DNA from: a phage | Sequence record: PZ495249.1 | Reading direction: 5' to 3' (one strand) | Length of the DNA stretch: 64,000 bases | Shown: piece after piece, positions 1,618 to 63,044 of the stretch | Layout: each line of letters begins with the position of its first letter | Numbering within the stretch: the stretch's first letter is position 1 | The notes under the pieces: model-generated | The model's database searches: none | What the model was told of the DNA's origin: nothing | What the model saw: the letters and a program-made list of their open reading frames with translations, nothing else | Program-made: the position numbers and the translations under genes

Positions 1618-1626
1618 GGAGAAAAC

Positions 1627-2069: not shown

Positions 2070-2268
2070 TAAAATTGTCTTGACACGCGAAGAGTTGAAG
2101 ACTATCATTGAAGACGCATTCATAGATGGTTGGAAGCAAGGGCAAGAATCGGATTGGTACGATGCAGAAGACTTTTTGCACTACCACGCCAATCCAGATG
2201 GTTCTGAGGAAGAAACTCAGTCTGAAACAACCATCGCAATCAAAAACTTAATGGAGGAAAAATTATGA
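2062..2268 (+). CDS. hypothetical small protein
   Basis: 68 aa ORF overlapping the stop of the upstream gene. Confidence 0.45.
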   Translation: MSDKIVLTREELKTIIEDAFIDGWKQGQESDWYDAEDFLHYHANPDGSEEETQSETTIAIKNLMEEKL

Positions 2269-3059
2269 GCGAGAAAATTAGTCTGGTGAAACGTCAGGAA
2301 CAACTGGTAATCAGCCTGAAAAAGAAAAAGATTGCACAGATCGTACTGCGCGTTGCATCTGCACTGGATATCTCCGGTAGTATGCACAGCCTATATCGTA
2401 ACGGGACTGTTAGCGATTTCGTTGGTAAACTCCTGCCGTTCGGTATGCAGTTTGACGATAACCAGCAGATCGATATGTGGGCGTTCAACAACTACTCTTC
2501 TGAACTGCCGCCAGCTACCGCTGACGTGTACGATGACTATGTAGGTAAATGTATGCGTAACGTATCCATCAATGGTGGCACGAGCTACGCACCAGTTATC
2601 CAGGCGATCTACGACGAATACTTTGGCTCTACGCCAATGAAAACTGTATCTCGTGAAGTTGAGGTACAAGAGCAGCGTCCGGTGAGCGGTTTCTTTGCCA
2701 AACTGACAGGTAAAACTGAAACCGTTACTGTCAAGAAAACGATCACAGAACAAGTACCAGATACCTCTGCGCCTGTGGATACCACACCTGCAATGGTGTT
2801 CTTCCAGACTGATGGTGAGAACAATGACGAATCCGCAGTACGCGCTGTACTGAACCGTAACAAAGGTAAACCTATCTACTGGTTCATGGTTGGTGTTGGT
2901 AATGCTCGCTTTAGCTTCCTGAAAGCTCTGGCAAATGAATACGATAACGTAGCTTTCATCGGCATTGATGACCTGGATCTGTCTGACGAGCAACTCTATG
3001 ACAAACTGCTGTCTGATGAGTTTGGTCAGTGGGTTGAGAAAGTAGGTGCAAAAAACTAA
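2265..3059 (+). CDS. von Willebrand factor A domain protein with TerD-like N-terminal ISLxK motifs
   Basis: MIDAS DISGS, then GGTSYAPVIQA and FFQTDGENND vWA motifs; N-terminus MSEKISLVK...ISLKK resembles the TerD N-terminus of the next gene; RBS ggagg. Confidence 0.75.
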   Translation: MSEKISLVKRQEQLVISLKKKKIAQIVLRVASALDISGSMHSLYRNGTVSDFVGKLLPFGMQFDDNQQIDMWAFNNYSSELPPATADVYDDYVGKCMRNVSINGGTSYAPVIQAIYDEYFGSTPMKTVSREVEVQEQRPVSGFFAKLTGKTETVTVKKTITEQVPDTSAPVDTTPAMVFFQTDGENNDESAVRAVLNRNKGKPIYWFMVGVGNARFSFLKALANEYDNVAFIGIDDLDLSDEQLYDKLLSDEFGQWVEKVGAKN

Positions 3060-3068
3060 AAATAGTTG

Positions 3069-3096
3069 TTGACTTACCCGAAGAAATACGTAGAAT
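3069..3096 (+). promoter_or_regulatory. sigma70-like promoter TTGACT-N16-TAGAAT upstream of terD
   Basis: -35 TTGACT at 3069..3074, -10 TAGAAT at 3091..3096. Confidence 0.45.
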
Positions 3097-3109
3097 AGAT
3101 TACATCAAA

Positions 3110-3130
3110 GGGGAAGAGCGGTTCTTCCCC
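3110..3130 (+). promoter_or_regulatory. leader hairpin in the terD 5' UTR
   Basis: Perfect 8 bp stem GGGGAAGA/TCTTCCCC with loop GCGGT between the promoter and the RBS. Confidence 0.4.
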
Positions 3131-3164
3131 CCAGTAAATGAAAACAGAAAGAAGGAGAACATAC

Positions 3165-3767
3165 ATGTCTGAGAAAATTTCCCTGAAAAAAGGTTCCACC
3201 GAAAAGATCTCCCTGAAAAAGATCGCACCTCTGCTGAAAGAGATTCGTCTGGAATTCTCCTGGAAATCATCCACTAAACTGGATCTGGACGTAAGCGCAC
3301 TGGTGTGCCGTCATAATGCCTCTGGTAATCCAGAAATGCTGTCTGCCCGTCACCTGGTTTGCTATGCAAACAAAGTTGATCCAGAGCGTTCAACCTTCGC
3401 TGGCGAAGATGTTCGTGATGGTACTGGCAACCTGGAGCAGATCGATGTTACTCTGAGTAAAATCTCCCAGAATGCAGATGAAATTGCATTCGTGATCACC
3501 ATCGACGATGAAACTGGTCAGAAGCGCCTCGGTCATGCCTCCGAAGGTATGCTGAAAATCTTCGACGCAGAACGTAACGTCGAGATCCTGGACTTTGACT
3601 TCCTTGCACCGGAAGTTGCTGGTAACACCATCTGTCACGTAGCTTCGCTGGTTCGCGAAGATGGCGAATGGAAACTGAAAGCCTACGGTGTTGGTAAAGC
3701 AGGTATGGATATCTGTGATGTGGTGGTAGCATTCGGTGGTGACGTCAACTGGTTTGACTGCCCGTAA
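3165..3767 (+). CDS. terD: TerD-family protein (tellurite resistance / stress response)
   Basis: Protein-level resemblance to E. coli TerD as recalled: MSEKISLKKG...ISLKK, DLDVSALVC, DGEWKLKAYGVGKAG; RBS agaaggagaa before ATG at 3165 (ORF track start 3138 is upstream of the RBS). Confidence 0.85.
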   Translation: MSEKISLKKGSTEKISLKKIAPLLKEIRLEFSWKSSTKLDLDVSALVCRHNASGNPEMLSARHLVCYANKVDPERSTFAGEDVRDGTGNLEQIDVTLSKISQNADEIAFVITIDDETGQKRLGHASEGMLKIFDAERNVEILDFDFLAPEVAGNTICHVASLVREDGEWKLKAYGVGKAGMDICDVVVAFGGDVNWFDCP

Positions 3768-50449: not shown

Positions 50450-50524
50450 TGGTTGTAGCAGATGGAATCGAACCATCATCAATCGGTTATCAGCCGAACG
50501 TATTAGCCGTTATACTATGCCACA
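50450..50524 (-). tRNA. tRNA-Ile (anticodon GAT)
   Basis: 7 bp acceptor with encoded CCA, loop CTGATAA, T arm GATGG-TTCGATT-CCATC; hand-folded. Confidence 0.55.
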
Positions 50525-50530
50525 ATTGTT

Positions 50531-50613
50531 TGGCATCCAGGTGAGGAATCTAACCCCTTGAAACTGGTTTTGGAGGCCAGCAACGGGAACACCCATTTTT
50601 AATCTACCCAGAT
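50531..50613 (-). tRNA. tRNA-like element, possibly Trp (CCA) with aberrant D region
   Basis: Acceptor pairs with two G/U wobbles; loop CTCCAAA; T loop TTAGATT lacks C56; D region about 7 nt too long. Confidence 0.25.
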
Positions 50614-50619
50614 ATTGTT

Positions 50620-50695
50620 TGGAGGCGGGAGCCGGAATCGAACCGACCTGCGACAAGCATATGAAACTTGTGAGTTCCCAGAACTCTATCCCGCA
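50620..50695 (-). tRNA. tRNA-Met (anticodon CAT) with U1/C72 mismatch
   Basis: Loop TTCATAT, T arm GTCGG-TTCGATT-CCGGC, CCA encoded. Confidence 0.5.
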
Positions 50696-50776
50696 CTTTT
50701 GGTTGATAGTAAGAGAATCAAACTCTTCTCACAACGCCGTATGAAAGCGTCCGAAACATCAGCTTCACACTATCAA

Positions 50777-51040
50777 TTAAACACGATGGATTATTTTAAC
50801 TGTCTCACCCTTATCATTCATAAGGTAGGCACTTTCATTCCTATGAATAAAGTCCGTAGAGTTGCCACTAATGACACTTGCAATAACACCATCCAGCTTA
50901 TCATAACCTTCAAAATGATATTGGATGTGTATATTTCCATCAAGTTCTATATAATGTTCTTCTTCATCTACCTCGTAAGGTACTGAGTCATAAATTTTTG
51001 TCCCTTTGGGGAACTTGCGAACTATTTTCAATGTATACAT
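50777..51040 (-). CDS. hypothetical protein inside the tRNA array
   Basis: 87 aa; RBS gaaggaaa. Confidence 0.4.
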   Translation of the reverse strand: MYTLKIVRKFPKGTKIYDSVPYEVDEEEHYIELDGNIHIQYHFEGYDKLDGVIASVISGNSTDFIHRNESAYLMNDKGETVKIIHRV

Positions 51041-51124
51041 AGTATTTCCTTCGTAGTGTTTATATTAGTAATATGCCGTCCCAAGCCGAACGGCGATTAG
51101 TGTTTTAGCTTGGCATTGATAATA

Positions 51125-51199
51125 TGGTACTTCCTGGAGGAATCGAACCACCGACGCTCACCTTGTAAGGATGACGTTCTACCATTGAACTAAGGAAGT
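51125..51199 (-). tRNA. tRNA-Val (anticodon TAC)
   Basis: D arm GTTC-AATGGTA-GAAC, loop CTTACAA, T loop TTCGATT. Confidence 0.6.
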
Positions 51200-51272
51200 A
51201 TGGCGGGGATTTTCCGCACTGTCTATCGCGATATGGACTCGGACAGTGTTCTCGGCTAAATACCCCATTGTT

Positions 51273-51359
51273 TGGTACATCAGGTCAGACTCGAACTGAC
51301 ACGCCCTCACGAGCACTGGAACCTAAATCCAGGGCGTCTACCAATTTCGCCACTGATGC
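51273..51359 (-). tRNA. tRNA-Leu (anticodon TAG), long variable arm
   Basis: Loop TTTAGGT, 15 nt variable arm, T loop TTCGAGT. Confidence 0.6.
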
Positions 51360-51367
51360 ATTTAATT

Positions 51368-51444
51368 TGGTGGAGAAGTGGAGAATCGAACTCCATACTC
51401 GAAGGTGCAAACCTCGTGTTTTAACCGAATATTACTACATCCCC
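51368..51444 (-). tRNA. tRNA-Ala (anticodon TGC)
   Basis: Loop TTTGCAC; G3/U70 wobble in the acceptor stem (Ala identity element); T arm TGGAG-TTCGATT-CTCCA. Confidence 0.6.
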
Positions 51445-51506
51445 AATTTGTATACACTACACAGAAGATAGGTCTGATTGCCTCGGCAGTTGCCGTAGTG
51501 TTTATC

Positions 51507-51582
51507 TGGTACGGATGGAAGGAGTCGAACCTCCGACGCAGGGCTTCGTAGACCCTCGTTCTATCCACTGAACTACACCCGT
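51507..51582 (-). tRNA. tRNA-Arg (anticodon ACG)
   Basis: D arm GTTC-AGTGGATA-GAAC, loop CTACGAA, T arm GGAGG-TTCGACT-CCTTC. Confidence 0.7.
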
Positions 51583-51588
51583 ATTGTT

Positions 51589-51663
51589 TGGTGCAGAGTG
51601 TTGGTAACGATCCAACCTGTGTGGCTTTTCAGACCACCACTAATCCATCTCAGTTAACTCTGC
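51589..51663 (-). tRNA. tRNA-Phe (anticodon GAA)
   Basis: Loop CTGAAAA; T loop ATCGTTA (A54/U58 covariation). Confidence 0.6.
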
Positions 51664-51669
51664 ATAATC

Positions 51670-51745
51670 TGGTCAGTGAGAGAGGACTCGAACCTCCAAC
51701 AGCTACGCCCCAAACGTAACACTCTACCACTTGAGCTACTCACTG
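51670..51745 (-). tRNA. tRNA-Pro (anticodon TGG)
   Basis: C1-G72 first pair typical of bacterial tRNA-Pro; loop TTTGGGG. Confidence 0.6.
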
Positions 51746-51752
51746 ATAAATC

Positions 51753-51827
51753 TGGCTACAGGTCTTGGGATCGAACCAAGTCATACGGTGGTCAAAGCAC
51801 CGTGCCTTCCCATTTGGCTACCCTGTA
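51753..51827 (-). tRNA. tRNA-Gln (anticodon TTG)
   Basis: U1-A72 and 3 bp D stem GCC/GGC as in E. coli tRNA-Gln; loop CTTTGAC. Confidence 0.6.
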
Positions 51828-51834
51828 ATTAAAT

Positions 51835-51922
51835 TGGTATCGTGGACGAGATTCGAACTCGCAAGGGATTACTCCCGCCAGATTGAAAGTCTGGTTACTT
51901 AGGCCGTTTTGTATACCACGAT
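51835..51922 (-). tRNA. long-variable-arm (type II) tRNA with anticodon loop CTTTCAA (anticodon TTC); isotype ambiguous
   Basis: Perfect acceptor ATCGTGG/CCACGAT, anticodon stem CCAGA/TCTGG, 15 nt variable arm with GGGA-GTAA-TCCC stem, T arm GCGAG-TTCGAAT-CTCGT. Confidence 0.45.
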
Positions 51923-52025
51923 ATAAAATTTCTTAAAGAGAACTGCTGAAAGTTGAAGGAGAAAACCATGAGCGAAAAGAGAAAAGGTTTCCAGCAGTTC
52001 CATTTAAAAAATCTCGTAGGGTTGT

Positions 52026-52104
52026 TGGCGCGGGTGACAGGATTCGAACCTGCGACGAACTGGGTGGAAGCCAGACACTCTACCAAACTGAGTTACACAC
52101 GCGC
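52026..52104 (-). tRNA. tRNA-Gly (anticodon TCC)
   Basis: Loop CTTCCAC, T arm GCAGG-TTCGAAT-CCTGT; D region slightly long. Confidence 0.5.
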
Positions 52105-52170
52105 TGATTAACAACTCTATAATACTACTCTACTACATTTTAGCCCTCGTTGTCAAGGGCTTTTGACAAA

Positions 52171-52497
52171 TTATTTCAGAAGTTTTTCCAAACCTTGCTT
52201 CATCGCATACTCTATGAAGAAGTTTAGTTCACCGATTAACTCTGGTTCCCACTGGTCTTCCAAGCCATAACATGAACAATGTCCACCATGAACTTCATAA
52301 AACTTATTGTCACGCTTATCGTAGAAGTAAACATCGGATGATCCAGTGTAGCACTCATACGTATAATCTGCGTACAGGATGATAATATCATCTTCTGTTA
52401 GATCAACATGATAATCACTCATCACTTGATCGAAGTCTGAAAAGTCGTTATCATACACGTCAACATGCAGATACTTTTCTAATTCTTGTTTATCCAT
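52171..52497 (-). CDS. hypothetical acidic protein inside the tRNA array
   Basis: 108 aa; strong RBS aagaggaggaaac; HGGHCSCYG motif. Confidence 0.5.
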   Translation of the reverse strand: MDKQELEKYLHVDVYDNDFSDFDQVMSDYHVDLTEDDIIILYADYTYECYTGSSDVYFYDKRDNKFYEVHGGHCSCYGLEDQWEPELIGELNFFIEYAMKQGLEKLLK

Positions 52498-52737
52498 GTT
52501 TCCTCCTCTTTAGAATATGTGGGGCAGTGACGGATACCCCTTTGGGTGACAAACCCTACGTTCGGAAGCTCGGTCAGACTGACACAAAACACGAAGTCAA
52601 ATGTCCTTCCTCCCTGCTGTCGATTGGAGAGAGCCGATCCCCTCTGAACTTCATTTAAGCGCGATACCACTTAGGGCTGTCTAACACTTTCCTGAACTTA
52701 CCAATCCACCTAATCCCAGTCACGGTTTCGGATTTTC

Positions 52738-52813
52738 TGGTGCTCCCACACTGAATCGAACAGTGATTTGCGGGTTACAAAGCCGCAGTAATAGGCCATT
52801 ATACGATAGGAGC
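52738..52813 (-). tRNA. tRNA-Thr (anticodon TGT)
   Basis: T arm CACTG-TTCGATT-CAGTG, loop TTTGTAA closed by a C/C mismatch. Confidence 0.55.
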
Positions 52814-52819
52814 AAATTT

Positions 52820-52895
52820 TGGCGGGCAATATTGGATTCGAACCAATTACCATTCGGTTAACAGCCGACCGCACATCCGTATGTGCTTATCACCC
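52820..52895 (-). tRNA. tRNA-Asn (anticodon GTT)
   Basis: Loop CTGTTAA, T arm ATTGG-TTCGAAT-CCAAT, acceptor with two G/U pairs. Confidence 0.55.
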
Positions 52896-52973
52896 ATGTT
52901 CTTCGTTAAGAGTAGGCGCGTTTCATCAGTCGCCTCGTGTTATTTTCTCCTGTTTCCAGGCTCCCTTTAGTGC

Positions 52974-53096
52974 TCGCGAGGGAGGGATTCGAACCACTCA
53001 CCTCTGCCAGAGCCAACCAGATCTTTCGGGTAATTACTCCGTCCAACCATTTGATTAACCTGCTGGCAGCGTCCATCGCCCTTAGACTGCCTCGCG
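52974..53096 (-). ncRNA. tRNA-like element, 123 nt, perfect 7 bp acceptor but weak T stem (pseudo-tRNA or tRNA with insertion)
   Basis: Acceptor CGCGAGG/CCTCGCG, T loop TTCGAAT present, about 35 nt more than a type II tRNA. Confidence 0.2.
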
Positions 53097-53136
53097 TCTG
53101 TCAATTCAGATGCCACTAAAGCTCTCTCAACTAATT

Positions 53137-53220
53137 TGGTGTGGGTAGATGGATTCGAACCACCGCGCCTTTCGGATCAGATTTACAGTCTGGTGCATTC
53201 AGCCACTCTGCCATACCCAC
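53137..53220 (-). tRNA. tRNA-Tyr (anticodon GTA), long variable arm
   Basis: Loop CTGTAAA, T arm GGTGG-TTCGAAT-CCATC, CCA encoded. Confidence 0.7.
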
Positions 53221-53226
53221 ATTGTT

Positions 53227-53303
53227 TGGTGCGCCGGAAAGGATTCGAACCTTTAGTCCTCTCATTAAAAGTGAGATGCCTTATCCAGTTTAGCTACCGA
53301 CGC
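53227..53303 (-). tRNA. tRNA-Lys (anticodon TTT)
   Basis: D arm GCTA-AACTGGATAA, loop CTTTTAA, T arm AAAGG-TTCGAAT-CCTTT. Confidence 0.7.
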
Positions 53304-53443
53304 ATAAATTTTCTTTAGGATAGGAAGTGTGGGGCACTTCACTATTTATATCGGTGATGGTTGCCGCCATCTGCCGAAAGTTTACTCTATCTAAGTAAGA
53401 GTCGAAACGCTACACGAATAGTATTTCTATCATAAAGAAAACT

Positions 53444-53529
53444 TGGCGGAAGAGGGGAGGGTTGAACTCCCACGCCCTTTCGGACGGCAGTTTAGCAAAC
53501 TGCTATGGCTACCATTTCATCACTCTTCC
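53444..53529 (-). tRNA. tRNA-Ser (anticodon GCT), long variable arm
   Basis: Loop TTGCTAA, 14 nt variable arm, T arm GGGAG-TTCAACC-CTCCC. Confidence 0.65.
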
Positions 53530-53537
53530 ATTTTGTT

Positions 53538-53614
53538 TGGCAGTCGCGACGGGTTACGATCCCGCATTCTCTCCCGTGACAGGGGAGTACCATTACCAAG
53601 CCAGCCCCGCGACT
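53538..53614 (-). tRNA. tRNA-Asp (anticodon GTC)
   Basis: Anticodon arm CTCCC-CTGTCAC-GGGAG; T loop ATCGTAA. Confidence 0.65.
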
Positions 53615-53621
53615 ATTAATT

Positions 53622-53711
53622 TGGAGGAAGATAATGGAGTCGAACCATCACCGTATCACTACAATGGGCCAGGGTTCAAATCTGGTTGCGTACCACTACG
53701 CCCTATCTTCC
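53622..53711 (-). tRNA. tRNA-Ser (anticodon TGA), long variable arm
   Basis: Acceptor GGAAGAT/ATCTTCC, loop TTTGAAC, long variable arm. Confidence 0.55.
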
Positions 53712-53775
53712 AATCTATACTTCTTAGTCTATCATACTTTTCAATCGGTTGTCAATAGCTTTTTGAAAATTATTT

Positions 53776-53853
53776 TGGTCGGGGAGATAGGACTCGAACC
53801 TACATTTCCTCCATTACGCTATACGGCTTAGAAGACCGCCACGGTACACCCCG
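53776..53853 (-). tRNA. tRNA-like element, possibly Arg (TCT), with aberrant D region
   Basis: T arm GTAGG-TTCGAGT-CCTAT and arm GCGGT-CTTCTAA-GCCGT present, but no canonical D arm and 19 nt between anticodon and T arms. Confidence 0.3.
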
Positions 53854-53881
53854 ATCTCTTAGTGCTGACTATAACATAACT

Positions 53882-54052
53882 TATTCGTTACTGTCAAGCT
53901 CTTTTTTAATTTCTTTTCTTGCTTTCTGACGTTCAGTGGCTTTACACACTTCCTGCCAAGATTCGTACTCGTCACCTTTACGGTAGCCACGGCTACGACA
54001 AAGGGAGCAGAGACAACCTTCTTGACGATATTTCAAACCATGAGGTTTCATA
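53882..54052 (-). CDS. hypothetical small Cys-rich protein (not in ORF track, 56 aa)
   Basis: ATG after strong RBS aaggaggatatATG; MKPHGLKYRQEGCLCSLCRSRGYRKGDEYESWQEVCK. Confidence 0.4.
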
Positions 54053-54064
54053 TATCCTCCTTAA

Positions 54065-54139
54065 TTGGTGAGCATTACCAGATTCGAACTGGTGTCTTTC
54101 GGGTTTAGAATCCTACGCTTTACCGCTAAGCTAAATGCC
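54065..54139 (-). tRNA. tRNA with anticodon CTA (candidate amber suppressor); low-confidence fold
   Basis: Acceptor GGGCATT/AATGCTC, D arm GCTT-AGCGGTA-AAGC, T arm ACCAG-TTCGAAT-CTGGT, loop TTCTAAA; anticodon stem has two mismatches. Confidence 0.35.
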
Positions 54140-54371
54140 CTTCGTAAATGTCACGACTATCAGGATCGTGATACAATTCTGCAATTTCTTTACTTAAAGT
54201 AGCTCTCAGTATAATCCCTTTGTGCGAAACAATCAAGTAGATTTTCGTTTCACTTACATCTCCAGGGGCTAAGAGTTTACCTCTTACAATCCGCAAACGT
54301 TCTGCTGAATACCCTTCTTCGAGATCAGCCAACATATCTGCCAACGATTTAGAGAAAGTTAACCGATGCAA
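54126..54371 (-). CDS. hypothetical protein (TTG start, weak)
   Basis: 81 aa ORF with weak RBS; 3' end overlaps the CTA tRNA. Confidence 0.25.
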   Translation of the reverse strand: MHRLTFSKSLADMLADLEEGYSAERLRIVRGKLLAPGDVSETKIYLIVSHKGIILRATLSKEIAELYHDPDSRDIYEGHLA

Positions 54372-55459
54372 GGTATTACTTTCACGGTTTACAATTCCCC
54401 AGATACGATCATCCAGTTTGCAACTTCCTGACTCACAATTAGTCTATGACATTTTCGTTCTCCTGTTTGTTAATAAAACATATAAAGAAGGACAATGATC
54501 AGGTGACGTTTGCCAACGCCCTGCCGAAGTTCCGAAGATTGCAAGTCTTCGCTTGAACCGCATTTCATCAGGAGTAACGTATGATCAGTACGTTTTTCCG
54601 AAATGCTCACACCCCACGGTGCTGACAGTTTTAACACCAATCAATGCCTTTCTTTATATGTTCTGTCGATGGTGGAGGACGGTACGGGATTTTAACCCGT
54701 CTAAACTGGTTTGCAATCAGCCACATAGACACTCTGACAACCGTCCCATCGAAAAGCCAGTCTGTTCCTGGCTGTCACCACAGTTTTAACATTCTGTGGC
54801 TTGAACGTAGGAGCTATTCGATGCTGGCATTCTCCCGTAGCTCTGCCTTTATAGGGGTATGAACCCGTAGGGCGCACCTTATTGTTCCGTTCAAGGGATC
54901 ATGTTGAATGTTAACCTCTGCTTTTCCTTTAGGTTATTCGGAGAGGTACAACGATTGGGTTAGCGAAGCCCAAACACCTCCAGAGCAAACAACAATCTCC
55001 AAAACTGGTGTGACTGGTGGGGCATGATCCCACATCATCTCCTTCACAGGGAGGAACGTTAACCAGCTTACGCTCACAGTCACCATTGTTTGTAGTGTCT
55101 CCAAGGCTTCCTATTCCATCCTAAGATGATCCACCCCTTCAACTAACGCGCTACATCCCTACGAAGAATGAACGTCATTCTCATCGTCTGAAATCTTGTT
55201 CAGAGCATACCACTGCGGAGATTAACCCGCTTCTCATCCTACGTGGTCGGTAGTAGTTGTCAATCAAACAACTCGTAAAATATATTCTCGTAAGAACACA
55301 TATTGCGAGAGTTTGGCACCAGGAGGAGGAGTCGAACACTCCTAATCAGGTCATGACTCCTGACTATCTCAAACCAAACACTGTTGTGTCGGCTATTGCA
55401 TAACAGCGAGCGCTCACTCCTATGCAGACCTTCACCAGTGTCGAGATCCTGGTATTGTT

Positions 55460-55550
55460 TGGTACGGGTGACGAGATTCGAACTCGTAAGATCATCAAAG
55501 ACCTGGGGGATTTTAAGTCCCATGTGTACTGCCAATACCACCACACCCGC
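55460..55550 (-). tRNA. tRNA-Leu (anticodon TAA), long variable arm
   Basis: Anticodon arm GGGA-CTTAAAA-TCCC as in E. coli Leu-UAA; T arm ACGAG-TTCGAAT-CTCGT; 91 nt. Confidence 0.7.
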
Positions 55551-55558
55551 TTTATTTA

Positions 55559-55741
55559 TTATCGACGAAGAATATCAATCACTTCGCCAAGCAACGCACT
55601 GTACGCCGCATCTTCGAGAATATCCTTCTGGAGTTCACTGTCAATCCCTGTTACGCTCTCGACAGTATCTGTTACCGGAGATACAACATCACGAGCAACG
55701 CTGGTAACATCATCAAGCACTTCACCGATAAATCCGAACAT
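55559..55741 (-). CDS. hypothetical small acidic protein
   Basis: Start set at ATG 55741 after RBS aaagaggagaa. Confidence 0.4.
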   Translation of the reverse strand: MFGFIGEVLDDVTSVARDVVSPVTDTVESVTGIDSELQKDILEDAAYSALLGEVIDILRR

Positions 55742-55760
55742 AATATTCTCCTCTTTAAGT

Positions 55761-55838
55761 TGGTGGTTCCACCTGGTTTCGAACCTGGACACTCTCGGTT
55801 ATGAGCCGAGTGCTCTGACCTACTTGAGCTATGGAACC
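55761..55838 (-). tRNA. tRNA with anticodon CAT (elongator Met or Ile2)
   Basis: Perfect acceptor GGTTCCA/TGGAACC, anticodon arm CTCGG-CTCATAA-CCGAG, T loop TTCGAAA. Confidence 0.6.
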
Positions 55839-55896: not shown

Positions 55897-56553
55897 TTAA
55901 TCTACGACAAACGGTGTAGTTGGAACAGAGAAGTTAGCATTATATCTGGCAACTTTACTGATGCGGATCTGATCAATATCACCAAACATTGTAGCTTCAC
56001 CAAAGCCGATTCGAGCTATGGCTGTAGCCAGTCCCCAACCGCCAGAAGCAAATCCAGCGCCAGTTACAGCCGTCGAACCATTGACATACAACTTAGTTAC
56101 ACCGTCCTTGTTAACCAAGGCAATGTGTGTCCAGTTAGTAAGAGGCCAAAAGTTACCATTGAAAGTTAATCCGGCAGATTGATCTCTCAAAGTAATGGTT
56201 CCACCATTGTTTCGCAAATAACTCTGTGTATTGTTACCAGCAAAGTATAACCACCAAGATCCAGCAATACTGTTGTTTCTTGACCACCATTCAATTGTGT
56301 AGTCTTGATTAGCAGCAAAAACCAAATCTGCTCTTTCGGATGCAATCATTTCGAAATAGTTCGGTGAACTTGTGCAAGTAAACATCTTATTGTTAAACTT
56401 TGCCACACTCGAAGTCGTTACCGTTGGTACTTTCGAAAAGGCTCGCGTTGGCTTTGCCTGGTCTACACCACCTTTATCTGCCTGTAACAGTAATAGTGTA
56501 CTGTTTGGCTGAGGTGTTGGTGGCTTGCCACCTGCTAACATTGTTTCTAACAT
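55897..56553 (-). CDS. LamG/concanavalin-like domain protein, paralog of 15929..17080
   Basis: 218 aa; N-terminal MLETMLAGGKP shared with the other LamG gene; Trp/Asn/Gly-rich lectin-like sequence. Confidence 0.5.
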   Translation of the reverse strand: MLETMLAGGKPPTPQPNSTLLLLQADKGGVDQAKPTRAFSKVPTVTTSSVAKFNNKMFTCTSSPNYFEMIASERADLVFAANQDYTIEWWSRNNSIAGSWWLYFAGNNTQSYLRNNGGTITLRDQSAGLTFNGNFWPLTNWTHIALVNKDGVTKLYVNGSTAVTGAGFASGGWGLATAIARIGFGEATMFGDIDQIRISKVARYNANFSVPTTPFVVD

Positions 56554-56570: not shown

Positions 56571-56840
56571 TCAAGAGAAGATAGCAAGTTCCTCATCACC
56601 TTCTGCGCGACGTTCAAACAGGACAGTAGCCAATGCACAAGCATTACCTTCTGTACGTTCTAAACCCATTATATCCATTGTCGCCAAGAAGTCAAGAAAT
56701 TCTGCGTCTTCATTCAAAATAAAACCTTCACCAGATGGATTAGGTGTGACTGCCTTTTCAGGCTCAAATACTAAAATTGTTGATCCGTCAGTACCCACTA
56801 ACAAGTGTTTGTTCAGGGTGTCGATATCGATCATTTCCAT
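56571..56840 (-). CDS. hypothetical protein
   Basis: 89 aa ORF. Confidence 0.4.
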   Translation of the reverse strand: MEMIDIDTLNKHLLVGTDGSTILVFEPEKAVTPNPSGEGFILNEDAEFLDFLATMDIMGLERTEGNACALATVLFERRAEGDEELAIFS

Positions 56841-56947: not shown

Positions 56948-57166
56948 TTAATTATAATCTGAGTCGTCCTCACCAACGGAGGTGAGAAGCAAGTCTGTTA
57001 TCATTTGATGCTGATAAACCCTTTCGGGAGTATCATCGAAAGCCAAGCCTGTACATATCGAACAGAGATCCGACTCTTGAATAGTTCCTGTCCTATCTCG
57101 ACGGGAGTGATTCTTCAAGTGCCTATTACAGGCTCGGCATCGAAAGTAAAAATTGTTTTGTGACAT
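56948..57166 (-). CDS. hypothetical zinc-ribbon protein
   Basis: 72 aa with CRACNRH...CSICTG Cys pairs. Confidence 0.4.
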   Translation of the reverse strand: MSQNNFYFRCRACNRHLKNHSRRDRTGTIQESDLCSICTGLAFDDTPERVYQHQMITDLLLTSVGEDDSDYN

Positions 57167-57244: not shown

Positions 57245-58942
57245 CTATTTCACCTCAATCAGATGATTCATAACCTCTTTATCCAGACGCGCACGAATAT
57301 CGTTGAAATCTTCATCTCGACCGTTCACCTGCGGAATCAGCACATCTCCGTTACGGAAGATTGGCTGCAACAGGTTATCTTCATCGTTGATCTCGTTGAA
57401 GGAGATGTTGTCAACCTGACGGATAACACCATCGTCACCACGAACAACTTTGATGAAGCCTTTCGCAGAGCGTTTACCTGGATCAGTTTTCGGCTCTTTG
57501 CTCACCATGATTTCGTAATCGTCAATGAAGCAACCAGTAGCTTTCACAGCAATACCGAAGGTATCACGAGTGTTGAACTGGTAGGTGAAGCTACCAACAC
57601 CGAATACGATGTTTGAGGAAGCAAAACCGTTACGTTTCAGACGAGACAGAATTTCAATCTCACGCTGAACAGTGATTGAATCACCGTAAATCATGCCGAT
57701 ATGAGTATCCAGCACTTTGTAACCTTTGTTGTTCACTTCACCACCGAAGATTTCCCACAGGATCTGGATAGAACCTACCGCCTCATGGCGTGGAATCTCA
57801 CGGTCTTCGTCGATCAGCCAGTAAATATTCTCTTCTTTCAGGAACGCAACTTCTGTCAGGATATGACGAGAAGTGTTAATGAAGTGTTCACGATTCTCGA
57901 ACTCTTCAATATGATAACCAGCAACAACATGTACCGGATTACCTGAGTCAGGGCGAATAACCAGGCGACCATCACGAGCCATAATCTCTTCTTTCAGTTC
58001 GCTCAGGATGCGAGTCAGTACAGTCCAGTAATCGTAGGAGTCAGCAACGTAAGAGCAGAAACCTTTAGGAACCACTTTGGTAATAAAGTGCAGCAGGAAT
58101 TCTTTCTCTGCAAGATAACGGAGGCCATCAACATCACCTGCGAGGTGAGGGAAATGCTCTTCGAGATCTTTTACGATACGACTGATGTTTGTAGTTGCCA
58201 CAGAGTGCTCAGACGCAGGGATACTACCAGCAACGAAATCATCTTCATCAATACCGTAGTATTCGTAAACCGCGTCGATTGCCAGAATGTTATCTGTACC
58301 AGTGAACGCTGCCAGGTGAGCGATACCGCTCTTATAGCCGTCTTCAATACAAGATAAACCGCGCAAACTGAAATCGTGACACTGGAAATTAACGTGATCC
58401 ACATTGTCACAAGTTGCCAGTGCATATGACATTGCCACACGCTTGTACTGGAACGCAGCAGTTGCGTTGGTGATCGCTTTCCAGCTTTCGGTTGACATTA
58501 CGGTTTCAACGTAGTTAGTCACCCAGAAGAATTTCTCAATCGTATTGTGAATGGTATAAACCGGAACACCAATCGGAGACAGAATACCTTCTGGCAGAGC
58601 ACGAATTTCCAGAGGCAGGTAGCCTAAATCGTGCAGTTCACCCCAACATTCAGCGCTTGGCGCAGATTCACCGAGTGATTTTTTAGCCATGCGATCAAAA
58701 CGCTTAACGGCTGCTTCTCGCTTCATCTTGAAGAATTTCTTCCACATGCCTACCATTGAGTCCATCACCATACGGCGGAAGCCGATGACGATAACACCGC
58801 GAGCATTTTTATCTGCGTAATGCGCAAAGTTCTTGTCATTACGTGGAGTCAGGTTAGAGAAGATCAGTTTAGTGTTTGGATTGTACATTGGCTTGTGACC
58901 AGGTTTGTACCAATCGGCAGCAGACGGTGCATAAATTTCCAT
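57245..58942 (-). CDS. nadV: nicotinamide phosphoribosyltransferase (NAMPT/NadV)
   Basis: 565 aa; NAMPT-family motifs recalled by eye (GTDNILAIDAVYEYYGI, FGVGSFTYQ); RBS aaggagaaaca. Confidence 0.8.
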   Translation of the reverse strand: MEIYAPSAADWYKPGHKPMYNPNTKLIFSNLTPRNDKNFAHYADKNARGVIVIGFRRMVMDSMVGMWKKFFKMKREAAVKRFDRMAKKSLGESAPSAECWGELHDLGYLPLEIRALPEGILSPIGVPVYTIHNTIEKFFWVTNYVETVMSTESWKAITNATAAFQYKRVAMSYALATCDNVDHVNFQCHDFSLRGLSCIEDGYKSGIAHLAAFTGTDNILAIDAVYEYYGIDEDDFVAGSIPASEHSVATTNISRIVKDLEEHFPHLAGDVDGLRYLAEKEFLLHFITKVVPKGFCSYVADSYDYWTVLTRILSELKEEIMARDGRLVIRPDSGNPVHVVAGYHIEEFENREHFINTSRHILTEVAFLKEENIYWLIDEDREIPRHEAVGSIQILWEIFGGEVNNKGYKVLDTHIGMIYGDSITVQREIEILSRLKRNGFASSNIVFGVGSFTYQFNTRDTFGIAVKATGCFIDDYEIMVSKEPKTDPGKRSAKGFIKVVRGDDGVIRQVDNISFNEINDEDNLLQPIFRNGDVLIPQVNGRDEDFNDIRARLDKEVMNHLIEVK

Positions 58943-59011
58943 TTGTTTCTCCTTTCTCTTGTTTGTTTCGATGAGGAGAAGATTAAGTTATCCTCTCCAC
59001 AAAGTCAACAC

Positions 59012-59911
59012 TTATTTGTAATTTTTACGAAGATTGCCGTTCAGAATGAAATTCTGGAGCGCTTGTTGGTTTAACACCAGTTTACCTGTCTCGTCAACAT
59101 TATTCTCCCACACATTGAAAGAATGGATGCAATCAAAGTGCTCATTTAGTTCTTTCATACCCTTAGAGAAGATACCGTGGGTAACGAACAGTTCAATCTT
59201 ACCAGCGTTACGTTCACGCAATACTTTGGCAAGCTCAATGAAAGTACGACCACCATCGCAGATATCATCCACGATCATCAAATTCTTACCGCAGAAGTCC
59301 TCGACGTTGATGTTGGTCTTGACAATATCTCCGGTCTTCGTATCACGGATTTTCTCTGCACAGTGTACAATGAGTTGCATTGGTTTAGCCAGTTTGAAGA
59401 TTTTCTTCAAGGCTCCACCGTCTGGACTAACCAGATCAAACTCTTCCATACGGAGTTTCCAGTTAATCGCGAACATTGCAATCTCTTCTTGTGGGATAAC
59501 AAACAAGTTATGGATTACAGCCGGAGTTACATCACTGTGCGGATCAGCAACAGTCACACGGTCAAAGTTAAGGTTGTTAAGTGCTTCTGCAAACGCACCG
59601 ATACCATTGGCTTCACCTGGTTCACACACTCGGTCTTGTCGAGCATATGGCACATAGAGCATAACAAGCTCTGTTGTGTGAGGGATGAATTTAAGAATGT
59701 TATCAATTGCATTCTTAGTCATCAGCAACACCATGAAGTCATTACCTGATCTTACTTCGTGATGGATAATCACACGAGAACCTGGTTCAGTTAATGCAAT
59801 CATCGTGTCTGCATCAACACGTACATGTTCTTCTCCGCCAGAGAAGGTGAATGTTTTGATTGGTACAGGATAAACTTCACTGTTGTGTGGGTGCATGATA
59901 TCAATCTTCAT
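59012..59911 (-). CDS. prs: ribose-phosphate pyrophosphokinase (PRPP synthetase)
   Basis: PRPP-binding loop NLMIVDDICDGGRTF, conserved YARQDRV; start set at ATG 59911 after RBS gaggagg. Confidence 0.8.
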   Translation of the reverse strand: MKIDIMHPHNSEVYPVPIKTFTFSGGEEHVRVDADTMIALTEPGSRVIIHHEVRSGNDFMVLLMTKNAIDNILKFIPHTTELVMLYVPYARQDRVCEPGEANGIGAFAEALNNLNFDRVTVADPHSDVTPAVIHNLFVIPQEEIAMFAINWKLRMEEFDLVSPDGGALKKIFKLAKPMQLIVHCAEKIRDTKTGDIVKTNINVEDFCGKNLMIVDDICDGGRTFIELAKVLRERNAGKIELFVTHGIFSKGMKELNEHFDCIHSFNVWENNVDETGKLVLNQQALQNFILNGNLRKNYK

Positions 59912-60113
59912 TGTCTTCCTCCTCTTCTTCAATTTCTTCAATTTCACTTAAACGATCAAGAATTGTCTGAGCCTGGTCCCAGAGAGCATCATAGGCTCTA
60001 CGCTCACGAGGAGATAGCTGTGAAGGTCTGAAATCATCTTGGTACATCTTATCAATAATATCTTGCATATCGTTCGATGTATTCTCGAACATACAATAAC
60101 TCATGTTTGACAT
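59901..60113 (-). CDS. hypothetical acidic protein
   Basis: 70 aa with poly-Glu C-terminus. Confidence 0.35.
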   Translation of the reverse strand: MSNMSYCMFENTSNDMQDIIDKMYQDDFRPSQLSPRERRAYDALWDQAQTILDRLSEIEEIEEEEEDNED

Positions 60114-60378
60114 ATCTTTCTCCTTGGTTAGTTGATGGACAGGAGTATAGATATGTAAGATCAGTAAGTCAACTACTTTCTTAGTATGAATTAATTAAGG
60201 AATAGATTGACTCAGGTATGTTAGATCTGATACATTGACAGACATGAAAGATATCTATACAGACAACTCTACTGTCTAAGAGATCTAAGTGAAACAGAAT
60301 GAGAGAATCTCCCCTCGCTTCGCTCGGCAAACTTCGTGTTTAGGGTAGCATGTTTCAAAACAAAAGTCAATACCTCAA

Positions 60379-61809: not shown

Positions 61810-61961
61810 AACTACGTATCACTGATATCCGAGCGTTTGACAACTATCACATAGCCTTGTCAATTCTTGGCGCACATAATGTAGGTGATGTGTTGGAGTA
61901 TAACGAACATATGCCTATCTTCGATATCTTGATCGAAAAAGGTTGGGTGCAAAAGGTATGA
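61806..61961 (+). CDS. hypothetical small protein
   Basis: Start ATG 61806 after RBS gggaggaagaagaa. Confidence 0.4.
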   Translation: MKLRITDIRAFDNYHIALSILGAHNVGDVLEYNEHMPIFDILIEKGWVQKV

Positions 61962-62302
61962 GAATCTGGCTTGATGATTTACGTGATCCAAGAGATTACG
62001 GATACCCTGATGCCATCTGGGTTAAAAACTCCATTGATTTCAAGCTGCAACTTATTGATTGTCTGCTTATGGAAGATGATGGTGATAGCCTGGTAGCGAT
62101 CCACTTTGACAACGATATTGGAGAAAAGACCGAAGGTTATCACCTCTTCTTAAAAGTGGAGGAGATCATTCATGCTGGAAAATTCAAGGGCTTGAAAGAA
62201 ATCTTTGTCCATACGTCGAATTCAGGGGCGGCTCAGAAATTTATGCTTGCAAAAGACGGGTTAGCTCGTTATGATGTGAACATAATTCGTAAATACTATT
62301 GA
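61958..62302 (+). CDS. hypothetical protein
   Basis: Start ATG 61958 overlapping upstream stop. Confidence 0.4.
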   Translation: MRIWLDDLRDPRDYGYPDAIWVKNSIDFKLQLIDCLLMEDDGDSLVAIHFDNDIGEKTEGYHLFLKVEEIIHAGKFKGLKEIFVHTSNSGAAQKFMLAKDGLARYDVNIIRKYY

Positions 62303-62314: not shown

Positions 62315-62481
62315 TGTGGAGCACACCATCAAGAGGCCAACTGCCTAACCAAAACGAAGTTGTTGTGGCTGTCAGTCCAGAGGGTAAGGAATTGGAGATG
62401 TACCGAATTGGCAATCTGTGGTTCCCTGTCGGTGACACATGTTATGTCTACTGGACACCTGTAATGTGGAGGAATAAGTAA
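62315..62481 (+). CDS. hypothetical small protein
   Basis: Start ATG 62315 after RBS gaggagag. Confidence 0.4.
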
Positions 62482-63044
62482 TGTTTGTGACGAGTGATCG
62501 CCACTTCTGGCATGATAAAGTGCTGGATTTTCAGGCGCATACCCGCCCATTCTCTGATTTAGAAGAGATGCATGAGGCATATATTAAAGAGTGGAACGCC
62601 TGTGCAACCAAACCTGGGGTGAAAATGTTCCACTTGGGAGATTTCAGTTTTGGTCTTCAAGACCAGACAGAAGAAATCTGCAAGCGTTTGCAGGGTGATA
62701 TCACCTTCATCGTTGGCAACCATGACCGCAGCTATACCCGTTCCGTAATGGAAAAGTATGGGCGTGTCGTCTGGTATGATGAAGTGAAATATCAGAAACA
62801 CTTCTTTGTATTGAGCCACTACCCTATGCTCACCTGGAACAAATCCCACAAGGGGAGTATCATGTTACATGGTCACGAGCATGGCAACTTGGTGCATCTC
62901 GAAGAGGAGCGTGGTAAAACTATGGATGTGGGCGTAGACGTTCACGGTCGCTTCTTACATTTCGATGAAATCATTGAGATTATGAAAGACCGTCCTATGC
63001 GCATGGATCATCGTAAATTTAGAGGGGAGGATATTATCCGATGA
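62481..63044 (+). CDS. calcineurin-like metallophosphoesterase
   Basis: GDFSFG, GNHD and GHEH metal-binding motifs in order; 187 aa. Confidence 0.65.
   Translation: MFVTSDRHFWHDKVLDFQAHTRPFSDLEEMHEAYIKEWNACATKPGVKMFHLGDFSFGLQDQTEEICKRLQGDITFIVGNHDRSYTRSVMEKYGRVVWYDEVKYQKHFFVLSHYPMLTWNKSHKGSIMLHGHEHGNLVHLEEERGKTMDVGVDVHGRFLHFDEIIEIMKDRPMRMDHRKFRGEDIIR

What the first reader, a model, noticed from the sequence alone, without database searches (positions are those of the whole stretch)
57245..59911. NAD+ salvage pair (NadV and PRPP synthetase), a candidate NAD+-reconstitution module
NAMPT and Prs are adjacent and co-oriented; Prs supplies the PRPP that NadV needs to make NMN from nicotinamide. 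Phage NAD+ salvage genes have been proposed to restore NAD+ when host defence systems degrade it. No NMN adenylyltransferase is recognisable in this window.
Basis: partly seen in the sequence, partly recalled or inferred. Interest (0 to 1): 0.55.

Follow-up and report, generated by a model that had tools for sequence, protein, structure and literature searches.

The report
Phage NARP1 NAD+-rebuilding gene pair
The two genes are real and intact, but they are best read as a further copy of the already described phage NARP1 pathway, which rebuilds NAD+ directly from ADP-ribose and nicotinamide after host defences destroy it, rather than as a classical PRPP synthetase plus NadV salvage pair.

Summary
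Observation confirmed: two adjacent, co-oriented minus-strand genes, 59012-59911 (299 aa, Prs-like) and 57245-58942 (565 aa, Nampt-like), 69 nt apart, in a phi92-like (Stephanstirmvirinae) phage genome.

Interpretation partly right. The module almost certainly restores NAD+ against NAD+-depleting defence, but the proposed chemistry (Prs makes PRPP, NadV makes NMN, an NMNAT is missing) is probably wrong. The pair matches NARP1 (Osterman et al.): Adps pyrophosphorylates ADP-ribose to ADPR-PP, and Namat joins ADPR-PP to nicotinamide to give NAD+ directly, so no NMNAT is needed.

Evidence:
- The large protein's best solved-structure match is SPbetaL1 Namat (387 bits, against about 179 for human Nampt).
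- It carries the Namat-specific motif GSFTYQFNTRD and the structure's NAD+-contact residues (three conservative substitutions).
- The small protein scores 239 bits on an Adps profile against 78 on a Prs profile.
- It sits in the Adps clade (99.7% bootstrap) and keeps the catalytic lysine.
- Its phi92-like relatives (66-72% identical) are already catalogued as NARP1.

No Macro (Adpp) or RyR (RyDEP) accessory gene lies nearby. Close relatives carry a NadR-like NMNAT, PnuC and Sir2 elsewhere in their genomes.

Verdict: new member of a known kind, low interest. No biochemistry was done on these proteins.

The parts
59012..59911 (-). adps: ADP-ribose pyrophosphokinase (ADPR-PP synthetase), 299 aa, Prs-like fold. 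First enzyme of NARP1.
   Evidence: ORF and start codon.

Scores against curated Prs models lie in the range of validated Adps proteins. TIGR01251 gives 104 bits, against 96-139 for SPbetaL1, FADO, Bas63 and muut Adps and 423 for E. coli Prs. PRK01259 gives 81 bits, against 533 for E. coli Prs.

Home-made profiles, trained without this protein or its two closest relatives, give Adps 239.5 bits and Prs 78.5 bits. An NJ tree supports the Adps|Prs split in 99.7% of 300 bootstraps.

The catalytic Lys (SPbetaL1 K162) corresponds to K187. Adps-type motifs are present: DPHS, K-I-R-D-x-x-T-G and DDICDGGRTF.

The protein is 66% identical to phage muut Adps, whose partner Namat is listed as 'Adps-associated' in Osterman Table S2.
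57245..58942 (-). namat: nicotinamide ADP-ribose transferase, 565 aa, Nampt-like fold. Second enzyme of NARP1.
   Evidence: Best solved-structure match is SPbetaL1 Namat, PDB 9W5X/9W5W, at E=1.5e-114 and 387 bits, against about 179 bits for human Nampt. The PDB codes are confirmed as Namat.

blastp gives 362-375 bits to the three experimentally tested Namats (Bas63, SPbetaL1, FADO) and 188 bits to KVP40 Nampt.

The SCH motif G450-S-F-T-Y-Q-F-N-T-R-D460 fits the Namat consensus GSX-phi-X-phi-X-phi-TRD. KVP40 Nampt has GGGLLQQLDRD at the same place (motif defined in PMC12774641).

Of the 20 NAD+/nicotinamide-contact residues of the crystal structure, 17 are identical and 3 are conservatively replaced (R40 to K37, A362 to S422, Y396 to F456), each as in other Namats. 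The conserved set includes D10, Y12, F191, R194, D217, R330, D332, G420-D421, T458-R459-D460. The catalytic His is H246.

The protein is 72% identical to muut Namat, labelled 'Adps-associated' in Osterman Table S2.
58943..59011 (-). Intergenic spacer between adps and namat, carrying the namat ribosome-binding site (AAAGGAG, then 7 nt, then ATG) and a short imperfect hairpin.
   Evidence: Read directly. Related Klebsiella phages carry a 67-aa ORF or an HNH endonuclease at this position, so the junction tolerates insertions.
59901..60113 (-). Small, very acidic ORF (70 aa, net charge -15) whose stop codon overlaps the adps ATG by 11 nt. Probably co-transcribed and translationally coupled. Function unknown. 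Not a general NARP1 component.
   Evidence: PHROGs 26791 and 8760, both of unknown function. Conserved (87.5% over the first 56 residues) upstream of adps in the Klebsiella relatives, but absent from the muut, Bas63, SPbetaL1 and FADO loci.
60144..60172 (-). Sigma-70-like promoter candidate (TTGACT, 17 nt, TATACT) upstream of the small ORF. Possible promoter of the ORF70-adps-namat unit.
   Evidence: 10 of 12 matches. Weak evidence only: the number of promoter-like sites in the region does not exceed the number found in shuffled sequence.

Best explanation
The pair is a NARP1 (NAD+ reconstitution pathway 1) operon of a phi92-like myovirus.

When a host SIR2-, TIR- or SEFIR-type defence system cleaves NAD+ into ADP-ribose and nicotinamide, the pathway would run in two steps:
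1. The Prs-like enzyme (Adps, 59012-59911) uses ATP to add a pyrophosphate to the 1'' position of ADP-ribose, giving ADPR-PP.
2. The Nampt-like enzyme (Namat, 57245-58942) displaces that pyrophosphate with nicotinamide, regenerating NAD+ in one step.

No PRPP, NMN or NMN adenylyltransferase is involved.

Shown here: gene integrity, clade membership, conservation of catalytic and ligand-contact residues, and operon arrangement.

Inferred by homology to tested proteins 31-40% identical: the two reactions themselves and the anti-defence phenotype.
For: (1) The published system has this exact anatomy, a 'Prs'-annotated gene directly upstream of a 'Nampt'-annotated gene. It was shown by genetics, metabolomics and purified enzymes to be Adps + Namat.

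(2) Namat. The best PDB hit is the Namat crystal structure, at twice the score of any Nampt. The Namat-specific selectivity-clamp helix motif GSFTYQFNTRD is present. The NAD+-contact residues are kept: 17 of 20 identical and 3 conservatively replaced. The biochemically confirmed Nampt of KVP40 lacks the aromatic residues.

(3) Adps. Profile log-odds favour Adps by 161 bits. The Adps|Prs bipartition has 99.7% bootstrap support. The catalytic Lys is present. The loop that binds the ribose-5-phosphate phosphate in Prs (DTGGT) is replaced by the Adps-type DGGRT. Curated Prs models score the protein like validated Adps and about four-fold below a true Prs.

(4) The nearest catalogued homologues (muut, phi92, ECGD1; 66% and 72% identity) have their Namat listed as 'Adps-associated' in the original paper's Table S2.

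(5) In that paper, 97% of Adps-clade genes lie next to a Namat. Here the two genes are 69 nt apart.
Against: No experiment exists for these two proteins or for any Stephanstirmvirinae NARP1. The tested systems (Bas63, SPbetaL1, FADO) are only 31-40% identical.

The variable clamp loop (SCL) is longer here (…PRNDKNFAHYADKNA…). The residue after the Lys is Asn, not the aromatic residue seen in Bas63 (K-W), so the adenine-stacking residue cannot be named.

Namat retains PRPP-to-NMN side activity in vitro. Close relatives encode a NadR-like NMNAT elsewhere, so some flux through NMN cannot be excluded.

My Prs reference set was small: 8 sequences, mostly actinobacterial, plus E. coli and one partial archaeal sequence.
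Confidence: 0.87

Rival explanations
1. The small protein is a true PRPP synthetase, the large one a true Nampt/NadV making NMN, and an NMN adenylyltransferase (host NadD/NadR, or a phage NadR-like enzyme encoded elsewhere) finishes NAD+.
For: Generic family annotations say Prs and Nampt. NCBIfam NF006629 is passed, 446 bits against a cut-off of 405. Namat enzymes can make NMN from PRPP in vitro. The five closest cultured relatives encode a NadR-like NMNAT and PnuC.
Against: NF006629 is passed equally by validated Namats and by KVP40 Nampt, so it does not discriminate. The small protein lies in the Adps clade, not the Prs clade, and SPbetaL1 Adps gave no product in the assay meant to test Prs activity. 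The large protein carries the adenine clamp motif that Nampts lack. Bas63 NARP1 still works in a pncC nadR double-knockout host. In the relatives, NadR lies about 73 kb away next to PnuC, which is the arrangement of a separate nicotinamide-riboside salvage module.
Confidence: 0.08
2. The pair is a general auxiliary metabolic module. It raises PRPP, nucleotide or NAD+ supply for phage replication and has no specific link to host defence.
For: Large lytic phages carry many nucleotide-metabolism genes. Relatives have RNR, thymidylate synthase and MazG. KVP40 NARP2 raises NAD+ even without a defence system.
Against: ADPR-PP formation by NARP1 was seen only when a defence system was active and supplied ADP-ribose. 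The Adps clade is almost exclusive to phages.
Confidence: 0.03
3. The genes are decaying or catalytically dead remnants.
For: None found.
Against: Both reading frames are intact, with good ribosome-binding sites. All catalytic and ligand-contact residues examined are conserved. Identical proteins recur on several independent metagenome contigs.
Confidence: 0.02

Closest known systems
NARP1 of Escherichia phages muut, phi92 and ECGD1 (Stephanstirmvirinae), catalogued but untested in Osterman et al. Tables S1/S2
   Same: Same gene order and orientation, with a tRNA cluster nearby. Adps is 66% identical and Namat 72% identical. Both Namat insertions and the same SCL sequence type (NDKNFAHYAD) are shared.
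   Different: These phages have no detectable homologue of the acidic 70-aa ORF upstream of adps. The window is closer to Klebsiella phages phi1_175008 and KP2025 (Namat 84%, about 83% nucleotide identity), which are annotated only as Prs/Nampt.
NARP1 of Escherichia phage Bas63 (JohannRWettstein, Felixounavirus), tested by genetics and metabolomics
   Same: Adps directly upstream of Namat. Adps motifs DPHS, KVRNxKTG and DDICDGGRTF. Namat carries insertions at the same two sites, Lys at SCL position 3, and the motif GSYTYQYMTRD.
   Different: Only 37% (Adps) and 40% (Namat) identical. Bas63's second Namat insertion is about twice as long. Bas63 has K-W in the SCL where the window has K-N-F.
NARP1 of Bacillus phage SPbetaL1, tested with purified enzymes; Namat crystal structures 9W5X/9W5W
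   Same: All residues that contact nicotinamide, both ribose-phosphates and the adenine are identical or conservatively replaced. The catalytic Lys of Adps is present.
   Different: SPbetaL1 Namat is 491 aa and lacks both insertions. It uses Arg40 rather than Lys in the SCL. Its Adps has DDLSSFGGTF rather than DDICDGGRTF.
NARP2 of Vibrio phage KVP40 (Nampt/NadV plus the bifunctional Nmnat NatV)
   Same: Same Nampt fold and the same overall purpose of rebuilding NAD+ during infection.
   Different: KVP40 Nampt prefers PRPP, lacks the aromatic clamp (GGGLLQQLDRD), and is only 31% identical (188 bits). It is paired with an Nmnat rather than a Prs-like gene.
NARP1-AP (with the Macro-domain phosphatase Adpp) and NARP1 + RyDEP (with an RyR-domain glycosidase)
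   Same: Same Adps + Namat core.
   Different: No Macro or RyR domain was found in the flanking genes or within 10 kb on the source contig. This is the plain two-enzyme form. By inference it should not rescue NAD+ from aRES, which yields ADPR-1''-phosphate.

Membership tests
Namat (NARP1 nicotinamide ADP-ribose transferase) | Closer in sequence to validated Namats than to validated Nampts | tested here: met
   387 bits to the SPbetaL1 Namat structure against about 179 to human Nampt. 362-375 bits to the Bas63, SPbetaL1 and FADO Namats against 188 to KVP40 Nampt.
Namat (NARP1 nicotinamide ADP-ribose transferase) | [quoted passage not shown] | tested here: met
   Residues 450-460 read GSFTYQFNTRD, with F452 and F456 at positions 3 and 7. 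Motif definition is in PMC12774641.
Namat (NARP1 nicotinamide ADP-ribose transferase) | Selectivity-clamp loop (SCL) supplying an adenine-stacking residue. Position 3 is R, K or Y; when it is K or Y, the next residue stacks. | tested here: inconclusive
   Position 3 is K37, which is allowed. The next residue is N38, followed by F39, and the loop is 5 residues longer than in SPbetaL1. The stacking residue cannot be assigned from sequence. The paper itself describes the SCL as variable.
Namat (NARP1 nicotinamide ADP-ribose transferase) | Intact Nampt-like catalytic core (SPbetaL1 F189, D215, R306, catalytic His) | tested here: met
   F191, D217, R330 and H246 are present.
Namat (NARP1 nicotinamide ADP-ribose transferase) | Prefers ADPR-PP over PRPP and produces NAD+ | not testable with these tools
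   Needs purified enzyme and LC-MS.
Adps (NARP1 ADPR-PP synthetase) | Falls in the phage Adps clade, separate from cellular Prs | tested here: met
   Adps profile 239.5 bits against Prs profile 78.5 bits. Leave-out controls behave as expected. The NJ bipartition has 99.7% support from 300 bootstraps. Prs sampling was small, at 8 sequences.
Adps (NARP1 ADPR-PP synthetase) | A Namat gene within 10 genes (true of 97% of the clade) | tested here: met
   Namat is the next gene downstream, 69 nt away.
Adps (NARP1 ADPR-PP synthetase) | Catalytic lysine equivalent to SPbetaL1 K162 | tested here: met
   K187, in the sequence AEKIRDTKTGDIV.
Adps (NARP1 ADPR-PP synthetase) | Pyrophosphorylates ADP-ribose and does not act as a Prs | not testable with these tools
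   Needs an enzyme assay. No Adps structure has been solved.
Prs (ribose-phosphate diphosphokinase, cellular type) | Reaches the curated cut-off of at least one equivalog or subfamily Prs model | tested here: not met
   TIGR01251 104 bits against a cut-off of 113. PRK00934 95 against 296. PRK01259 81 against 297. E. coli Prs scores 423 on TIGR01251 and 533 on PRK01259. Caveat: two other Adps proteins (Bas63 at 138.5, muut at 119) pass the loose TIGR01251 cut-off, so that cut-off alone does not separate the clades.
Prs (ribose-phosphate diphosphokinase, cellular type) | Prs-type motifs: N-terminal strand-helix segment, DLH(A/T), the DTGGT ribose-5-phosphate loop, and the C-terminal SVSxLF | tested here: not met
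   The window protein has DPHS and DGGRT instead, and lacks both the N-terminal segment and the C-terminal motif.
NARP2 (Nampt + Nmnat) | A KVP40-clade Nampt together with an Nmnat in the same genome | tested here: not met
   The large protein is not in the KVP40 Nampt clade. No Nmnat is present in the window or within 10 kb of the pair. Relatives do have a NadR-type NMNAT, but it is paired with PnuC.
NARP1-AP / NARP1 + RyDEP (extended forms) | A Macro-domain Adpp or an RyR-domain glycosidase in or next to the operon | tested here: not met
   No such Pfam hit in the flanking ORFs or on the source contig within 10 kb.

The most novel reading that the evidence does not exclude
In this Klebsiella-type phi92-like lineage, NARP1 could be a three-gene unit. 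Under this reading the translationally coupled, highly acidic 70-aa protein (59901-60113) is a new accessory of NAD+/ADP-ribose counter-defence, for example an inhibitor of a host NADase or ADP-ribosyltransferase.

The reason to consider it: the protein's close homologues in Rak2-like jumbo phages are coupled in the same way to an ADP-ribosylglycohydrolase gene.

A weaker variant of the same idea: the long SCL and the two Namat insertions shift substrate range towards other ADP-ribose derivatives.
Probability: 0.06. Interest if true: 0.5.

Novelty: new member of a known kind. Interest (0 to 1): 0.15.

Why it matters
It matters mainly as an annotation correction. Public records and metagenome pipelines still label these genes 'ribose-phosphate pyrophosphokinase' and 'nicotinamide phosphoribosyltransferase'. 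That labelling leads readers to look for a missing NMNAT and to mis-model the pathway.

Recognising the pair as plain NARP1 gives testable predictions for this phage group, which includes Klebsiella phages of therapeutic interest:
- It should resist SIR2-, TIR- and SEFIR-type NAD+-depleting defences.
- Lacking Adpp, it should stay sensitive to aRES.

The lineage also appears to combine NARP1 with a NadR/PnuC module and a Sir2-like gene. This would make it a convenient place to ask whether the different phage NAD+ modules are redundant or complementary. None of this is new biology in kind.

Tried and rejected
(1) Classical Prs + NadV reading. Rejected on clade membership and motifs.

(2) Extended NARP1 forms. 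I looked for a Macro (Adpp) or RyR (RyDEP) neighbour and found none.

(3) NMNAT, NadR or Nudix in the window. None was found in 30 scanned ORFs or in the contig's precomputed Pfam hits. The structural block at 17.8-48.9 kb was not scanned with Pfam.

(4) The acidic ORF70 as a NARP1 component.
- Its close homologues sit next to an ADP-ribosylglycohydrolase in several jumbo phages.
- GAP32, CBB and fHe-Yen9-04 lack that neighbour.
- 40 more distant viral loci show no Adps, Namat, ARH, NMNAT or PnuC within 5 kb, and no shared neighbour family.
- The association is lineage-specific and may be coincidental.

(5) cREC_REC + phosphoesterase as a recycler of ADPR-cyclic-phosphate. I considered this, but the two genes lie in the divergent transcription unit. 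They sit next to a ligase (PF01068 on the source contig; 'RNA ligase' in muut). From my own recollection of the RNA-repair literature, that is the usual RNA-repair cassette.

(6) Recovering the rest of the source genome to look for NadR.

(7) Structure prediction was not run. It would have needed a very costly database search to build an alignment, and it would not change the verdict.

Full report
**What is there.** On the minus strand, the window carries a 565-aa ORF at 57245-58942 and a Prs-like ORF at 59012-59947. The longer GTG-initiated form of the second ORF is not the gene. An ATG at 59911 is preceded by GAGGAGG, and an independent metagenome gene call gives the same 299-aa product. The finding's coordinates are exact.

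The large protein matches Pfam NAPRTase (E=1.9e-35), NCBIfam NF006629 (446 bits, cut-off 405) and PHROG 448 (E=4e-181). The small one matches Pribosyl_synth, Pribosyltran and PHROG 619 (E=9e-84). The genes are 69 nt apart, and the downstream gene has its own ribosome-binding site. A 70-aa acidic ORF (59901-60113) ends 11 nt inside the Prs-like gene. A sigma-70-like site (60172-60144) lies just upstream of that ORF. This is weak evidence, because promoter-like sites are no commoner here than in shuffled sequence.

**Where it comes from.** The region is about 83% identical in DNA to Klebsiella phages KP2025, phi1_175008, KP13-26 and FKP3, which belong to the Stephanstirmvirinae, a group of roughly 150-kb myoviruses. 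The exact proteins occur on JGI and Logan metagenome contigs of up to about 153.7 kb. There they are labelled 'nicotinamide phosphoribosyltransferase' and 'ribose-phosphate pyrophosphokinase'. The pair lies between a block of 23 tRNA genes and a divergently transcribed block of small early-type genes.

**What it is.** Osterman et al. (bioRxiv 10.1101/2024.02.11.579819) started from this same anatomy in phage Bas63, a 'Prs' gene followed by a 'Nampt' gene, and showed that both annotations mislead.
- Deleting the pair sensitised Bas63 to SIR2-HerA.
- Protection did not need host pncC or nadR.
- ADPR-pyrophosphate appeared in infected cells.
- The purified SPbetaL1 homologue of the first gene gave no product in the assay meant to test Prs activity, and pyrophosphorylated ADP-ribose instead (Adps).
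- The second enzyme made NAD+ from ADPR-PP plus nicotinamide, and preferred ADPR-PP over PRPP (Namat).

They named the pathway NARP1 and found it in 4.3% of phages. A structural study (PMC12774641) then defined what separates Namat from Nampt. Namat has an adenine 'selectivity clamp' made of a variable loop (SCL) and a conserved helix (SCH). The helix carries the motif GSX-phi-X-phi-X-phi-TRD.

**Namat test.** The window's large protein hits the SPbetaL1 Namat structures 9W5X/9W5W at E=1.5e-114 (387 bits), against about 179 bits for human Nampt. By blastp it scores 362-375 bits against the three experimentally tested Namats and 188 bits against the biochemically confirmed KVP40 Nampt.

I aligned it with these proteins. 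Of the 20 residues that contact nicotinamide, the two ribose-phosphates or the adenine in the crystal structure, 17 are identical:
- D10, Y12, F191, S192, R194, D217 and A243;
- R330 and D332;
- G420 and D421;
- G450, S451 and F452;
- T458, R459 and D460.

Three are conservatively replaced, each as in other Namats: K37, S422 and F456. The catalytic His is H246. Residues 450-460 read GSFTYQFNTRD, an exact fit to the Namat motif, whereas KVP40 has GGGLLQQLDRD.

The extra length (565 aa against 491) comes from two insertions, after the catalytic His and after the RPDSG segment. Bas63, muut and the Klebsiella phages have insertions at the same sites.

The one feature I could not settle is the SCL. 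Position 3 is Lys, which is allowed, but it is followed by Asn-Phe in a longer loop, so the stacking residue is unknown.

**Adps test.** Pairwise scores alone discriminate poorly: 132 bits to Bas63 Adps, 83 to SPbetaL1 Adps, 71 to FADO Adps and 61 to E. coli Prs. I therefore assembled 16 Adps-clade and 8 Prs sequences. They came from fetched loci, from the paper's Table S1, and from one PDB alignment.

Profiles built without the window protein or its two closest relatives score it at 239.5 bits (Adps) against 78.5 bits (Prs). Leave-out controls give the same pattern for Bas63, SPbetaL1 and FADO Adps, and the reverse pattern for E. coli and Thermoplasma Prs. An NJ tree separates Adps from Prs in 99.7% of 300 bootstraps and places the window protein with muut and phi1_175008 in 100%.

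Curated NCBIfam Prs models score it like validated Adps (TIGR01251: 104 bits, against 96-139) and about four-fold below E. coli Prs (423). The ATP-side motifs are kept: the YARQDR flexible loop, SPDGGA, and the catalytic K187, which corresponds to SPbetaL1 K162. The loop that binds the 5-phosphate of ribose-5-phosphate in Prs (DTGGT) is the Adps-type DGGRT, DLH(A/T) is DPHS, and the Prs N-terminal segment and C-terminal SVSxLF motif are missing.

Linking these changes to accommodation of the AMP moiety is my inference. No Adps structure exists.

**Already catalogued relatives.** Table S2 of the original paper lists the Namat genes of phi92, muut and ECGD1 as 'Adps-associated', and Table S1 lists their Adps genes. 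The window's proteins are 72% (Namat) and 66% (Adps) identical to those of muut. This is therefore a further member of a lineage already counted as NARP1.

**Extended forms and the NMNAT question.** Two 2026 preprints describe add-ons to NARP1. One is a Macro-domain phosphatase, Adpp, that lets NARP1 cope with aRES, which produces ADPR-1''-phosphate. The other is an RyR-domain glycosidase, RyDEP, that feeds cyclic ADPR signals into NARP1. Neither domain occurs in the flanking genes or within 10 kb on the source contig. This is the plain two-enzyme form, and by inference it should be aRES-sensitive.

The closest cultured relative, phi1_175008, encodes three further NAD+-related genes:
- a NadR-like NMNAT and a PnuC-like transporter about 73 kb from NARP1;
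- a Sir2-like protein.

The NadR gene is 88-100% conserved in all five Klebsiella relatives. At about 57% identity it also occurs in many rV5-like phages, including PVPSE1, which also has Adps. By synteny it would lie about 15-17 kb beyond window position 1. I could not reach that part of the source genome. The Osterman preprint mentions NadR plus a transporter as an untested third pathway.

This co-occurrence is the only real support for the classical-salvage rival, which I put at 0.08.

**The small acidic ORF.** Its homologues, 72-77% identical, occur in Rak2-like jumbo phages. In Serratia phage BF, Salmonella phage Munch and others, the homologue directly follows and overlaps an ADP-ribosylglycohydrolase gene. 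That is suggestive.

However, GAP32, CBB and fHe-Yen9-04 lack that neighbour. Forty more distant viral loci have no NAD- or ADPR-related gene within 5 kb and no common neighbour. The ORF is also absent from the muut, Bas63, SPbetaL1 and FADO loci. I treat it as a lineage-specific passenger of unknown function and keep the accessory-factor idea only as the low-probability novel reading.

**Verdict.** The best explanation is NARP1 (confidence 0.87, resting on homology and conserved determinants, not on assays of these proteins). Novelty: new member of a known kind. Interest: low (0.15). Its value is mainly as an annotation correction and as a source of a few testable predictions.

Noticed in passing
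window 59901-60113 (-): A 70-aa protein with net charge -15, translationally coupled to adps. Homologues 72-77% identical occur in Rak2-like jumbo phages. In several of them (Serratia BF gp349/350, Salmonella Munch 372/373) the homologue overlaps the end of an ADP-ribosylglycohydrolase gene. More distant homologues show no such link.
   Followed up: partly
outside the window; Klebsiella phage phi1_175008 PQ360875: 125896-126963, 124463-125155, 16312-17190: The closest cultured relatives carry a NadR-like NMN adenylyltransferase, a PnuC-like transporter and a Sir2-like protein in addition to NARP1. The lineage therefore seems to stack several NAD+-related modules. Whether the window's own genome does so could not be checked.
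   Followed up: partly
window 54066-54140 (-): Among the 23 tRNA genes at 50450-55838 is one with anticodon CTA, which ARAGORN labels tRNA-Pyl. This would be an amber-suppressor-type tRNA.
   Followed up: no
window 514-3767 (+): Three consecutive genes with tellurite-resistance-type domains: TelA (514-1617), a vWA-TerF-like protein (2265-3059) and TerD (3138-3767). They are followed by a cell-wall hydrolase and two glycosyltransferase-like genes.
   Followed up: no
window 61955-62302 (+) and 62481-63044 (+); ligase just beyond the window end (L059 4001-5119): A cREC_REC ('cyclic-phosphate processing receiver') protein, a metallophosphoesterase (PHROG 547) and, on the source contig, an ATP-dependent ligase (PF01068) lie close together. 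This looks like an RNA-repair-type cassette rather than part of NARP1. One relative's annotation calls the cREC homologue a 'nudix hydrolase', which Pfam does not support.
   Followed up: partly
window 57245-59911 (PHROG scan): PHROG 12872 (profile length 547, named as a Nampt) is matched by the Adps protein over profile positions 12-222 and by Namat over positions 221-541. This suggests the family contains fused or mis-joined Adps-Namat proteins.
   Followed up: no
window 58943-59011; L001 14031-14234; Klebsiella phage FKP3: The adps-namat junction is variable. It is a 69-nt spacer here, carries a 67-aa ORF in phi1_175008, and carries an HNH endonuclease in FKP3.
   Followed up: no
window 56948-57166 (-) and 56571-56840 (-): A 72-aa Cys-rich (zinc-ribbon-like) protein and an 89-aa protein directly downstream of namat. 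Both are also found in phi1_175008 and in muut, where the first is unannotated. The first is about 80% identical in DNA in phiWec and Pseudomonas PsgM04F phages, even where the NARP1 genes themselves are too diverged for megablast.
   Followed up: partly
window 55897-56553 (-): A 218-aa LamG/concanavalin-like domain protein sits between tRNA genes and the NARP1 block. One relative annotates its counterpart as 'baseplate wedge protein'.
   Followed up: no
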